Source: Escherichia coli | GTDB lineage: Bacteria > Pseudomonadota > Gammaproteobacteria > Enterobacterales > Enterobacteriaceae | Assembly (NCBI RefSeq): GCF_036507355.1 | Contig: NZ_AP027877.1 | Direction: 5' to 3' (one strand) | DNA length: 64,000 nt | Shown here: positions 18,648 through 19,700 of the stretch, piece after piece | How positions within the stretch are numbered: position 1 is the stretch's first letter | Layout: every line of letters begins with the position of its first letter | Made by a program: the position numbers and the translations under genes | Notes under the pieces: generated by a model | Told to the model about the DNA's origin: nothing | Database searches by the model: none | Seen by the model: only the letters and a program-made list of their open reading frames with translations

Positions 18648-18941
18648 TCACGCCGTGATCTTCATTAAAACATTATCAACAAAAACCCATTCGGGGTGAG
18701 AGGTGGGCGCTGGCATTTTTGTTTTACGTTCGCGCCGTGGATCTGCGATTTCAAAGGCTGGCGTCATAAATCTGAAAGTCATTGCTTCCGCATAAGCCTG
18801 GCTGAATCCATAACGACGCAGCTCATGAATTAACGCCTCATCATCCAGATCCAGCGCGTAAACCTCTTCAGCAATAGCGGCGGCAATCTGTAGGCGGGTG
18901 CTGTTGGGCAAGCGGTTCACATTCAGCATGACAGACTCCAT
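18648..18941 (-). CDS. hypothetical protein (97 aa), island cargo
   Basis: ORF MESVMLNVNRLPNSTRLQIAAAIAEEVYALDLDDEALIHELRRYGF...; no family recognised; begins 9 nt after a terminator hairpin so expression context is unclear. Confidence 0.45.
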   Translation of the reverse strand: MESVMLNVNRLPNSTRLQIAAAIAEEVYALDLDDEALIHELRRYGFSQAYAEAMTFRFMTPAFEIADPRRERKTKMPAPTSHPEWVFVDNVLMKITA

Positions 18942-18947
18942 CAGGTC

Positions 18948-18971
18948 AAAAGAAACCGCCTTTCGGCGGCG
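18948..18971 (-). terminator. rho-independent terminator inside cargo cluster
   Basis: minus-strand gccgcc-gaaa-ggcgg stem-loop followed by TTTCTTTT. Confidence 0.6.
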
Positions 18972-18989
18972 CTTGGCAGTGAGGGAAGG

Positions 18990-19052
18990 TTACGGGCAGA
19001 TAAGCATCAGGTAGCAGTACAGCATCACACAGAGCGCATATGCCTCAGTCAT
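18990..19052 (-). CDS. possible 20-aa hydrophobic Cys-rich peptide (MTEAYALCVMLYCYLMLICP)
   Basis: ATG overlaps the TGA of the upstream 62-aa ORF (ATGA); hand translation from the sequence; followed by the terminator; could be chance. Confidence 0.25.
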   Translation of the reverse strand: MTEAYALCVMLYCYLMLICP

Positions 19053-19237
19053 GATTTCCCCGCATAGAAGTTCTGGTTAAATAGCTTCTGACTCATCCCC
19101 GTACTATCCGCTTTGCCACCAGAATAAAAAGCCTTGTTAAAGTCAGATTGACTGCTACCACTGAAGGAAGTGCCAGTTTTGCCCTCTCGCGCTTCACGCG
19201 CTTTTCTCAATGCCTCGATTACGGATGCTTTACTCAT
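19049..19237 (-). CDS. hypothetical small protein (62 aa), island cargo
   Basis: ORF MSKASVIEALRKAREAREGKTGTSFSGSSQSDFNKAFYSGGK...; GAGGG Shine-Dalgarno upstream; start overlaps stop of upstream gene (ATGA). Confidence 0.55.
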   Translation of the reverse strand: MSKASVIEALRKAREAREGKTGTSFSGSSQSDFNKAFYSGGKADSTGMSQKLFNQNFYAGKS

Positions 19238-19638
19238 CGTGCAAACCCTCGTGTAATACTGGTGTAACCTCGACCGGCTGCTTTGCTCAGTTCATTCAGG
19301 CCATTGGTCACAACCTTCGATTCCCAACCGATAACCCCATTAATAGAGCGCGGCAAAGGGAAGTTCCCGTCCCTGCTCCATTCCTTCAATTTGGCAGTGG
19401 TGAGTGCTTTGCCATATTGGCGCTGATATCTCACACAAACATCATCAGGGCTTACCAGACCCACTTTGCTGAGGCCCAACGGCGAGTGAGAGTATTCGAT
19501 TTGCTTTACATACCAACCATCACCAACGGCGTACAGACCGGATGGATGGCGCTTACACTCATCAGCTTGGCGGCGTTGTTCTGCTGCTTGCTTTTGTTCA
19601 ATCAAAATTGTTTCTAACTCAGTCATTGGTGTCACCAT
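19234..19638 (-). CDS. hypothetical protein (134 aa), first gene of island cargo cluster
   Basis: ORF MVTPMTELETILIEQKQAAEQRRQADECKRHPSGLYAVGDGWYVKQIEY...; no family recognised. Confidence 0.55.
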   Translation of the reverse strand: MVTPMTELETILIEQKQAAEQRRQADECKRHPSGLYAVGDGWYVKQIEYSHSPLGLSKVGLVSPDDVCVRYQRQYGKALTTAKLKEWSRDGNFPLPRSINGVIGWESKVVTNGLNELSKAAGRGYTSITRGFAR

Positions 19639-19640
19639 TA

Positions 19641-19700
19641 AAATGTACTAGCGTGAGGGTACATTATACCAACCGTACTAGCTTGCTGGTACAATATTCA
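19641..19700 (-). promoter_or_regulatory. candidate promoter/operator of cargo cluster
   Basis: minus-strand TATAAT (complement of attata at 19663..19668) about 25 nt upstream of the ATG; two ~30-bp direct repeats each containing GTACTAGC and GGTACA. Confidence 0.4.

What the first reader, a model, noticed from the sequence alone, without database searches (positions are those of the whole stretch)
18648..19700. Uncharacterised translationally coupled small-gene cluster at the att-proximal end of the island
A 134-aa and a 62-aa ORF are coupled by an ATGA overlap, followed by a possible 20-aa hydrophobic peptide, a strong terminator and a 97-aa ORF. None matches a family I recognise. The cluster has its own putative promoter with direct repeats and sits where satellites usually carry variable cargo. 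It is the best candidate in this window for an undescribed system (anti-phage, helper-packaging interference, or toxin/antitoxin-like).
Basis: inference. Interest (0 to 1): 0.7.

Follow-up and report, generated by a model that had tools for sequence, protein, structure and literature searches.

The report
Conserved end module of small satellite
The small-gene cluster is real, but it is not swappable cargo: it is a conserved operon of unknown function, headed by a DNA-binding protein, that ends a rare family of 8-kb phage-satellite-like islands in enterobacteria and sits beside a previously unnoticed small RNA.

Summary
On the minus strand lie a 130/134-aa ORF, a 62-aa ORF and a 20-codon ORF joined by ATGA overlaps, then a strong terminator and a 93/97-aa ORF, beside the att core of an 8.1-kb island inserted in the 3' end of yicC. 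All four ORFs are under purifying selection (dN/dS 0.08-0.30).

The 'variable cargo / defence' reading is not supported. The cluster is kept, in the same order and place, in islands with two unrelated integrases, three insertion sites and four replicase types. The variable slot lies upstream, at ORF151 in this window. PADLOC, PHROGs, NCBIfam, Pfam and PDB sequence searches give no significant hit.

The first protein carries an AlpA/excisionase-type winged helix (hhalign 88.5%). A structured ~90-nt RNA with its own terminator runs divergently from the operon promoter and shows compensatory changes.

My best reading is a self-regulated backbone module of a PICI/PICMI-like satellite lineage, probably used for helper exploitation or maintenance. 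Its biochemical role is unresolved. It is rare: 36 of 5,426 complete E. coli genomes, and Enterobacteriaceae only.

The parts
18485..18503 (.). att core repeat at the island end next to dinD. Its partner lies at 26620-26638, inside the 3' end of yicC.
   Evidence: A 17-19 bp repeat TCAAT[g/a]TTCTGAATCTG occurs at both ends. The chromosomal flank up to about 18503 matches 4,705 E. coli genomes.
18568..18585 (.). TGTAC-N8-GTACA site in the att arm, probably an integrase arm-type site.
   Evidence: It is conserved near both ends of islands with the yicC-type integrase. Islands with the other integrase carry GTGGGTTT repeats there instead. The function is inferred.
18648..18929 (-). ORF97 (93 aa from the conserved ATG at 18929; the 97-aa reading starts at 18941). 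It has an N-terminal three-helix bundle, a basic disordered linker and a C-terminal beta-hairpin.
18948..18979 (-). Intrinsic terminator between the 20-aa ORF and ORF97, embedded in a 32-nt stretch that is invariant in a seven-island alignment.
   Evidence: The 25-mer GCGCCGCCGAAAGGCGGTTTCTTTT is identical in the window and 13 further loci.
18990..19052 (-). 20-codon ORF (MTEAYALCVMLYCYLMLICP). It is hydrophobic and overlaps the ORF62 stop by ATGA.
   Evidence: It is always 20 codons, in six variants. A6, C8, C13, L15, M16 and P20-stop are invariant. pN 0.15-0.35 against pS 0.6-0.8.
19049..19237 (-). ORF62: a basic protein with an N-terminal helix, a variable linker and two repeats Q-x-x-F-N-x-x-F-Y-x-G-K.
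   Evidence: Alignment A3; dN/dS 0.08-0.27. No Pfam, PHROG or phage homologue. The family is limited to Enterobacteriaceae.
19234..19638 (-). ORF134 (130 aa from the ATG at 19626). It has an N-terminal helix, a beta-hairpin, and an AlpA/excisionase-type winged helix-turn-helix at residues about 58-110.
   Evidence: hhalign of A1 against the AlpA alignment A5: probability 88.5%, E 2.7e-6. GNFPLPRSxNGVxGW is invariant. NCBI names some members 'PrtN family'. dN/dS 0.20-0.27.
19663..19671 (-). Extended -10 promoter element TGGTATAAT of the operon.
   Evidence: It is kept in most islands as TGGTATAAT, or as TGATATAAT in L010; L002 has the weaker TAGTACAAT without the TG. It is flanked by GTAC-N10-GTAC palindromes in most islands but not all. 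There is no experimental start site.
19645..19704 (.). Two 30-bp direct repeats that hold back-to-back divergent -10 elements.
19696..19790 (+). Candidate ~90-nt small RNA, divergent from the operon. It has a -10 element TGGTACAAT at 19687-19695, a 5' stem-loop, a single-stranded CCAUCAA(A)GCGCAG, and a Rho-independent terminator.
   Evidence: The same architecture is kept with different stem sequences in all island types. The covariance model hits only this spot. 14 of 23 pairs changed on both sides, 92% of cells paired, 0 of 500 shuffles as good. No Rfam family matches.
19914..19955 (.). Three 11-bp-spaced iteron-like repeats, possibly the replication origin. They lie outside the operon.
   Evidence: Similar CCCTGAC repeats occur in other islands. 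The function is inferred.
20042..20497 (-). ORF151, with a signal-peptide-like N-terminus. It occupies the slot that really varies in this island family.
   Evidence: It is absent, divergent (53-65% identity) or accompanied by TM2 or DUF5681 genes in other islands.

Best explanation
The cluster is a conserved backbone module of a rare lineage of minimal PICI/PICMI-like satellites. These islands are about 8 kb and run integrase, ~200-280-aa protein, AlpA, small protein, primase-helicase, variable slot, this module, att.

Shown:
- Four co-directional genes (ORF134, ORF62, a 20-aa ORF, ORF97) are under purifying selection.
- The first three are translationally coupled.
- A terminator that is invariant among the islands aligned, and a GGAG, precede ORF97.
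- A near-consensus extended -10 promoter drives the operon.
- A divergently oriented, structurally conserved ~90-nt terminator-bearing RNA element adjoins the promoter.
- ORF134 carries an AlpA/excisionase-type winged helix.

Inferred:
- ORF134 is the module's DNA-binding regulator. It probably acts on the divergent promoter region, where GTAC palindromes overlap both -10 elements in most variants.
- With the small RNA, it keeps the operon low in the integrated state.
- When the operon is expressed, ORF62 and the 20-aa peptide are made by coupled translation.
- ORF97 is made only by read-through of the terminator.
- The module travels with any integrase or replicase type but always with this kind of island. 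I therefore infer that it supplies the island's third essential function, interaction with its helper (activation, hijacking or interference) or stable maintenance, rather than integration or replication.

The biochemical activities of ORF62, the peptide and ORF97 are unknown.
For: - Island anatomy and att.
- AlpA is PF05930. Primase/helicase: PHROG DNA primase and DUF927.
- The module is conserved in place with unrelated integrases (23% identity), three att sites, and four replicase types: Toprim+DUF927, DUF3987, VapE, and Zn-ribbon primase+DUF5906/Pox_D5.
- The slot between the replicase and ORF134 varies (same calls).
- Purifying selection on all four ORFs. The 20-codon ORF and the terminator are conserved.
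- ORF134 winged helix.
- Promoter and palindromes.
- Small RNA architecture and covariation.
- No defence-family hits.
- yicC is a common PICI site in E. coli, with a related integrase in 539 of 5,426 genomes; other PICIs there lack the module.
- Literature analogies: a second AlpA-like gene at the far end of PICI EcCIMP1 acts on the helper phage (PMC11773190). Minimal int-alpA-prim satellites have a hotspot downstream of prim (PMC10803314).
Against: - There is no expression, binding or phenotype data.
- The winged-helix assignment rests on one profile-profile hit (88.5%). Pfam finds nothing and the AF2 model is poor (pLDDT 57).
- The GTAC palindromes are absent in L010 and L009, although ORF134 is present. 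The operator assignment is therefore weak.
- Predicted pairing of the small RNA with the ORF134 start region is not better than shuffles.
- No helper phage is known. No cos or pac similarity to any of 50,697 phage genomes was found.
- The satellite nature of the island is itself inferred from gene content.
Confidence: 0.45

Rival explanations
1. Type-I-toxin-antitoxin-like or abortive-infection module. The 20-aa hydrophobic peptide is a membrane toxin, and the divergently transcribed small RNA is its antitoxin. The module stabilises the island or kills infected cells. It would be conserved because it is an addiction or defence function of the backbone.
For: - The peptide is hydrophobic (GRAVY 1.55), conserved and translated by coupling.
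- A structured small RNA with a terminator lies divergently beside the operon promoter. From memory, this is the layout of tisB/istR-1, shoB/ohsC and zorO/orzO.
- The small RNA's conserved single-stranded motif can pair with 10-11 nt at the ORF134 start in L008 and L010.
Against: - The peptide is the third cistron of an operon, not a monocistronic toxin with a long 5' UTR.
- Small RNA-mRNA pairing is not significant against shuffles and is weak in this window (6+3 bp).
- PADLOC gives no hit.
- The invariant Pro-stop ending and the terminator immediately downstream fit a cis-acting leader peptide equally well.
- Toxicity is untested.
Confidence: 0.2
2. Excision module. ORF134 (PrtN/AlpA-like) or ORF97 is the recombination directionality factor, placed across attP from int as rdfM is in yicC-specific mobilizable islands and rdfN (PrtN family) in dusA-specific ones. 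The island might then be mobilised by a conjugative element rather than a phage.
For: - Position: the last genes before att at the end opposite int.
- Durand et al. 2021 (PMC8409611) report that yicC-specific elements carry two small ORFs upstream of attR, the second RdfM-like. They also show that a PrtN-domain protein is the RDF of dusA islands.
- ORF134 has that fold type, and NCBI names some members PrtN family.
Against: - Neither protein tracks the integrase. L008 has the yicC-type integrase (92% identical) but an ORF134 only 55% identical. The N-domain of ORF97 stays 84% identical in islands whose integrase is 23% identical and whose arm-type repeats differ.
- AlpA sits next to int and does co-vary with integrase type, making it the likelier RDF.
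- ORF134 at 130 aa with an extra N-domain is atypical for an RDF.
- Pfam PF11112 is not matched.
- No relaxase, oriT or mob gene was seen.
Confidence: 0.15
3. Packaging-redirection or helper late-gene activation module. It would be functionally like Rpp/TerS/Ppi of PICIs or Delta of P4: ORF134 binds a pac/cos-like site or helper late promoters, and ORF62 or ORF97 binds helper terminase, capsid or repressor.
For: - In PICIs, the genes after the replication module are typically the packaging or interference genes (my own knowledge; PMC6092414 was listed but not read).
- The module is independent of the integrase and replicase types, as expected for a helper-specific function.
- It is often preceded by a DUF5681 gene in relatives.
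- Its narrow taxonomic range fits dependence on a specific helper.
Against: - No sequence match to any solved structure, so none to any Rpp or TerS entry if deposited.
- No homologue in 50,697 phage genomes for ORF134, ORF62 or ORF97.
- No phage DNA similarity that could mark a shared cos or pac site.
- The 12-nt match to P2 cos is chance.
- The invariant terminator 27-mer is absent from IMG/VR except in another copy of the island.
Confidence: 0.15

Closest known systems
Gram-negative PICIs (e.g. EcCICFT073, EcCIMP1) and PICMI minimal satellites
   Same: - Same layout: integrase at one end, AlpA (PF05930), primase-helicase, all genes co-directional, no structural or lysis genes, a specific att site.
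- Size 8.1 kb, with an accessory slot downstream of the replicase.
- yicC is used by many other E. coli PICI-type islands.
- EcCIMP1 also has a second AlpA-family gene at its far end (PMC11773190).
   Different: - The terminal ORF134-ORF62-peptide-ORF97 module and the divergent small RNA have no counterpart in the PICIs examined here (L013, L014) or in the papers read.
- No rpp, terS or capsid-remodelling gene.
- Helper dependence is unproven.
AlpA / excisionase / PrtN winged-helix proteins (Pfam HTH_17, Phage_AlpA, PF11112), including RdfN
   Same: Residues about 58-110 of ORF134 align to the island's AlpA family, with the G-x-hydrophobic-P-x-P ... W signature and a helix-helix-strand pattern. 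Some relatives are named PrtN family by NCBI.
   Different: - ORF134 is twice as long, with a conserved N-terminal helix plus beta-hairpin.
- It has a 6-residue insertion between the helices.
- It does not reach any Pfam threshold.
- It does not co-vary with the integrase.
Divergent type I toxin-antitoxin loci (tisB/istR-1, shoB/ohsC, zorO/orzO)
   Same: A very small hydrophobic peptide gene lies beside a divergently transcribed, terminator-bearing small RNA.
   Different: The peptide is the third, translationally coupled cistron behind a DNA-binding protein. No significant small RNA-mRNA complementarity was found. There is no sequence similarity to known toxins.
Leader-peptide attenuators and arrest peptides (TnaC; pyrE/rph coupling)
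   Same: A short conserved ORF ends in Pro-stop about 20 nt before a terminator. That terminator precedes a gene with an RBS but no detected promoter.
   Different: No alternative antiterminator structure was detected (z -0.17). The hairpin starts about 19 nt after the stop codon, beyond a ribosome stalled at the stop codon. The peptide is unusually hydrophobic.

Membership tests
PICI-type phage satellite (Gram-negative) | Tyrosine integrase at one end and a specific att site with direct repeats | tested here: met
   Integrase at 25182-26441 (PHROG 1, E 1e-71). att repeats at 18485-18503 and 26620-26638 in the 3' end of yicC.
PICI-type phage satellite (Gram-negative) | AlpA regulator downstream of int | tested here: met
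   PF05930, E 1.3e-10. All 8 aligned island AlpAs match.
PICI-type phage satellite (Gram-negative) | Primase/replicase module and no phage structural or lysis genes | tested here: met
   Toprim and DUF927 proteins hit PHROG DNA primase families. The other island ORFs have no PHROG structural hits.
PICI-type phage satellite (Gram-negative) | Helper-phage-induced excision, replication and packaging | not testable with these tools
   No helper was identified. No phage DNA or protein similarity.
PICMI (minimal satellites of Vibrionaceae) | int + alpA + prim and integration next to fis | tested here: not met
   int, alpA and prim are present, but integration is in yicC, not fis. The definition comes from PMC10803314.
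AlpA/excisionase winged-helix superfamily (ORF134 C-terminal domain) | Profile similarity to HTH_17/Phage_AlpA | tested here: inconclusive
   hhalign against the island AlpA alignment gives 88.5% probability, E 2.7e-6. Pfam hmmscan finds no hit for any of 15 members.
Pyocin activator PrtN family (PF11112) | Match to the Pfam model | tested here: not met
   No hit even at E <= 10 for ORF134, or for the NCBI-named member P0037. The name exists only in NCBI records.
Recombination directionality factor (RdfM/RdfN-like) | Co-variation with the cognate integrase and binding sites in the att arms | tested here: not met
   ORF134 and ORF97 types do not follow integrase type. Arm repeats follow the integrase, not the module.
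Recombination directionality factor (RdfM/RdfN-like) | Sequence similarity to RdfM of MGIVflInd1 | not tested
   No RdfM sequence was available in the tools' collections.
Known anti-phage defence systems (PADLOC-DB 2.0) | Match to any defence-protein model | tested here: not met
   Zero families for ORF134, ORF62, ORF97 and ORF151. The 20-aa ORF was not submitted.
Type I toxin-antitoxin | Small hydrophobic peptide plus a small RNA complementary to its mRNA | tested here: inconclusive
   The peptide and the small RNA are both present. Duplex energies are not better than shuffles, z -0.15 to -1.6.
Type II toxin-antitoxin | Recognisable toxin or antitoxin domains in an overlapping gene pair | tested here: not met
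   No Pfam, NCBIfam or PADLOC hits. ORF62 is repeat-containing; I infer from its composition that it is disordered.
Rpp / small terminase packaging proteins | Sequence similarity to solved Rpp/TerS structures or to phage TerS | tested here: not met
   No PDB sequence hit at E <= 10 with the profile. No PHROG terminase hit.
Rfam RNA families (candidate small RNA) | Match to any of 4,227 covariance models | tested here: not met
   Nothing at 19696-19790, even at E <= 10.

The most novel reading that the evidence does not exclude
The module is a previously undescribed, self-contained switch of a new minimal-satellite lineage. It consists of an AlpA-like regulator, a trans-acting small RNA and a 20-aa peptide. 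The peptide either arrests its own ribosome to gate terminator read-through into ORF97, or acts as a membrane toxin. Together they would decide when the island turns on its helper-exploitation or host-killing programme.
Probability: 0.25. Interest if true: 0.65.

Novelty: new variant of a known kind. Interest (0 to 1): 0.45.

Why it matters
If the inference is right, this is the one part of a minimal 8-kb satellite that is neither integration nor replication, so it would hold the determinant of how the island recognises or exploits its helper. It is small enough (about 1.1 kb plus a 90-nt RNA) to dissect completely. It also gives a clean case of a conserved 20-codon gene and an unannotated small RNA that automatic annotation misses in every genome examined. 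Practically, it corrects where to look for cargo in these islands: the variable slot is between the replicase and the small RNA, not at the att end.

Tried and rejected
- **Defence or toxin-antitoxin families.** PADLOC, NCBIfam, PHROGs and Pfam gave no significant hits.
- **Solved-structure relatives by sequence.** None.
- **Fold search of ORF134.** The model was too poor (pLDDT 57) and the matches were meaningless.
- **Phage homologues or a shared cos/pac site.** No DNA or protein match in 50,697 phage genomes. The only hits were E. coli flank sequence inside two Campylobacter phage records.
- **P2/P4-type cos.** A 12-nt identity (GCGGGGAAAGCA) to the verified P2 cohesive end occurs at the ORF62 stop in relatives. 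There is no extended similarity, and scores equal those of shuffles. It doubles as the RBS of the 20-aa ORF, so I rejected it.
- **Lambda cosN.** Only a 7-nt overlap with the terminator, judged by eye. Rejected.
- **Leader-peptide attenuator with alternative hairpins.** RNAalifold and RNAfold show only the terminator, z -0.17.
- **Small RNA pairing with the ORF134 start.** Present in some variants but not significant.
- **GGGTAC/GTAC sites as a shared operator linking the promoter and att.** The att-arm sites follow integrase type and are probably arm-type sites.
- **Wider family.** Profile search of 1.84 billion representative proteins, the 100,044-species genome scan and IMG/VR added only near relatives.
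- **Other yicC islands in E. coli (L013, E2348/69 L014).** They have no homologue of the cluster.
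Full report
**Setting**

The window is E. coli chromosome. An 8.1-kb island lies between dinD and yicC. It is bounded by the repeat TCAAT[g/a]TTCTGAATCTG at 18485-18503 and at 26620-26638; the second copy is inside the 3' end of yicC.

All island genes are on the minus strand, in this order:
- integrase (25182-26441);
- a 283-aa protein with a weak excisionase-like N-terminus;
- AlpA (PF05930, E 1.3e-10);
- a 167-aa protein;
- a Toprim protein and a DUF927 helicase (PHROG 'DNA primase');
- ORF151;
- the cluster in question.

No tRNA gene is present. No structural or lysis gene was found among the ORFs tested. 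This is the gene content of a PICI-type satellite. A related integrase (about 67-69% nucleotide identity) occupies the same yicC site in 539 of 5,426 complete E. coli genomes, in other PICI-like islands that carry Icd-like, PerC, Ash and primase genes.

**The observation**

- ORF134 is 19638..19234, and ORF62 is 19237..19049.
- The 20-codon ORF is 19052..18990.
- These three are chained by two ATGA overlaps.
- A GC-rich hairpin with a T-run follows at about 18972-18948.
- ORF97 comes next. Its conserved start is the ATG at 18929 (93 aa), behind a GGAG.

Two 30-bp direct repeats sit just upstream of ORF134.

**Are the genes real?**

Yes. Against divergent relatives, where synonymous sites are near saturation (pS 0.45-0.8), dN/dS is:
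- 0.20-0.27 for ORF134 (closer pairs);
- 0.08-0.27 for ORF62;
- 0.09-0.17 for ORF97.

For the 20-codon ORF, pN is 0.15-0.35 against pS 0.6-0.8. That ORF is exactly 20 codons in every island, in six variants. The pattern is M-x-[EG]-[AT]-[YFN]-A-[LF]-C-x-[ML]-x-[YF]-C-[YWL]-L-M-x-x-[RC]-P-stop.

**Cargo or backbone?**

I recovered related islands from E. coli, Citrobacter, Kluyvera, Shimwellia, Salmonella, Atlantibacter and metagenomes. The module is always the last thing before att, at the end opposite the integrase. Everything else is exchangeable:
- Two integrase types only 23% identical, each with its own arm-type repeats.
- Three insertion sites: yicC, the yhbW-ubiV interval, and the caiC/fixA region.
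- Four replicase types: Toprim+DUF927, DUF3987/YfjI, VapE, and Zn-ribbon primase+DUF5906/Pox_D5.

The slot between the replicase and ORF134 is the part that varies. It is empty in the Citrobacter islands. Elsewhere it holds an ORF151-like secreted protein with or without a TM2-domain protein, or DUF5681 plus small ORFs.

The module is also mosaic internally. For example, L008 has 87% identity in ORF62 but 55% in ORF134. L002 has 100% in ORF97 and 55% in ORF62. This argues against tightly co-adapted toxin-antitoxin partners.

**Distribution**

The family is narrow:
- 36 of 5,426 complete E. coli genomes carry it.
- The k-mer-indexed search of 5.8 billion protein clusters gave 19, 14 and 22 hits for the three proteins, all named ones from Enterobacteriaceae.
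- A full profile search of 1.84 billion cluster representatives gave five hits.
- A scan of 100,044 species genomes gave two extra loci.

No phage genome among 50,697 carries a homologue or similar DNA.

**The proteins**

*ORF134 (pI 9.3).* PHROGs, NCBIfam, PADLOC, Pfam and PDB-sequence searches find nothing significant. A profile-profile comparison aligns residues 58-110 to the island's own AlpA family (probability 88.5%, E 2.7e-6), with a 6-residue insertion. The invariant GNFPLPRSxNGVxGW motif corresponds to the G-x-x-P-x-P...W signature of AlpA/excisionase winged helices. The low-confidence AF2 model (pLDDT 57) shows the expected helix-helix-strand pattern, preceded by a long N-terminal helix and a beta-hairpin.

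NCBI names a few members 'pyocin activator PrtN family', but the Pfam PrtN model is not matched. I therefore treat ORF134 as an AlpA/PrtN-like DNA-binding protein, not as a member of PF11112.

*ORF62 (pI 9.9).* It has an N-terminal helix, a variable linker and two repeats Q-x-x-F-N-x-x-F-Y-x-G-K.

*ORF97.* It has a confidently modelled three-helix bundle (pLDDT about 90), a basic disordered linker and a C-terminal hairpin. Fold matches are generic.

**Control region**

In most islands aligned the operon is preceded by TGGTATAAT or TGATATAAT, an extended -10 element without a good -35 (window 19671-19663). L002 has the weaker TAGTACAAT without the TG. On the opposite strand, 27 bp away, is a second extended -10, TGGTACAAT (19687-19695). 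GTAC-N10-GTAC palindromes overlap both -10 elements in most variants, but not in L009 or L010. They are therefore plausible operators, not proven ones.

Downstream of the plus-strand -10, every island type encodes about 88-93 nt with the same architecture:
- a 5' stem-loop;
- a single-stranded CCAUCAA(A)GCGCAG;
- a canonical Rho-independent terminator that faces away from all island genes.

The stems differ in sequence between types. A covariance model built from one type finds the other types only at the homologous spot in 420 kb and nowhere else. On the resulting alignment, 92% of cells pair and 14 of 23 pairs have changes on both sides. No shuffle out of 500 reaches this, and slid controls collapse. 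One caveat applies: the alignment is fitted to the model. Rfam has no match.

I regard this as a good candidate small RNA (window about 19696-19790, plus strand). Its conserved loop can pair with 10-11 nt at the ORF134 start in L008 and L010. It pairs with only 6+3 nt in this window, and duplex energies are not better than shuffles. The target is therefore unknown.

**Terminator and the 20-aa ORF**

The 32 nt around the terminator are invariant across the seven islands aligned, although their coding DNA has diverged by 25-45%. The 25-mer core is identical in the window and 13 further loci. The small RNA's terminator, by contrast, evolves by compensation. ORF97 has an RBS but no detected promoter, so it probably depends on read-through.

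The invariant Pro-stop of the 20-aa ORF lies about 19 nt before the hairpin. This recalls leader or arrest peptides. I found no alternative antiterminator structure. The peptide could equally be a membrane microprotein.

**Explanations weighed**

1. **Backbone regulatory / helper-interaction module headed by a winged-helix regulator (0.45).** It explains the conservation, the independence from integrase and replicase modules, the private promoter, the small RNA and the narrow host range. The biochemical roles remain inferred.
2. **Type-I-toxin-antitoxin-like or abortive module (0.2).** The layout resembles tisB/istR-1-type loci. However, the peptide is a third cistron and pairing is unsupported.
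3. **Excision factor (0.15).** Durand et al. (PMC8409611) show that yicC- and dusA-specific islands keep their RDF (rdfM, or the PrtN-family rdfN) across attP from int, exactly this position. Here neither ORF134 nor ORF97 co-varies with the integrase, while AlpA does.
4. **Packaging redirection or helper late-gene activation (0.15).** This is positionally plausible, but there is no Rpp, TerS or cos evidence. A 12-nt identity to the P2 cohesive end proved to be chance.

**Novelty and score**

The island is a new lineage of a known kind, a PICI/PICMI-like satellite. The terminal module and its small RNA are undescribed in the papers I could search and have no family assignment. Nothing shown so far places them outside known regulatory logic. 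Interest 0.45.

Noticed in passing
window 19696-19790 (+): Unannotated candidate ~90-nt small RNA, divergent from the ORF134 promoter. It is conserved by structure in all island types and has no Rfam match.
   Followed up: yes
window 20042-20497 (-): ORF151 has a signal-peptide-like N-terminus (KKLKSIAIITLTLLATATVHA). It occupies the slot that really varies. Relatives pair it with a TM2-domain protein. It may be a surface or superinfection-exclusion cargo.
   Followed up: partly
window 19914-19955 and 19824-19834: Three 11-bp-spaced iteron-like repeats (…GTCAGGGTAA…) and a repeated GGTGATATCAG lie between ORF151 and the small RNA. This is probably the island's replication origin.
   Followed up: no
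window 17439-18261 (-), dinD: dinD carries two single-base deletions (near 18045 and 17751) relative to intact copies. It is therefore a pseudogene here, or the assembly has indel errors.
   Followed up: partly
window 18306-18503: The E. coli dinD-yicC intergenic flank is 97% identical to 197 nt inside two Campylobacter phage records (MG065686, MG065691). This is most likely contamination or chimerism in those records.
   Followed up: no
L019 (Logan ERR4228902 contig, 8,452 nt): A whole related island was assembled as a separate contig. Its two ends are a 30-nt inverted repeat (GACAAACTGACATTACTGACAAAAGCCCCC). The same inverted repeat flanks the yhbW-type islands inside their att sites.
   Followed up: partly
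window 24144-24995 (-): The 283-aa protein after int has a weak excisionase-type HTH at residues 19-46 (TIGR01764, E 0.011). Its counterparts in relatives are about 135-220 aa and poorly conserved.
   Followed up: no
L008, L009, L010, L017-L019 (upstream of the module): A DUF5681 protein plus a roughly 52-54-aa ORF often sits immediately upstream of the small RNA in relatives. It is absent from this window. L013 has a GAPLGNTNAVKHG-motif protein at the equivalent end.
   Followed up: no
L002 9593-9651: One relative has a 1-bp deletion inside the 20-codon ORF. This is either a natural knockout or a sequencing error.
   Followed up: no
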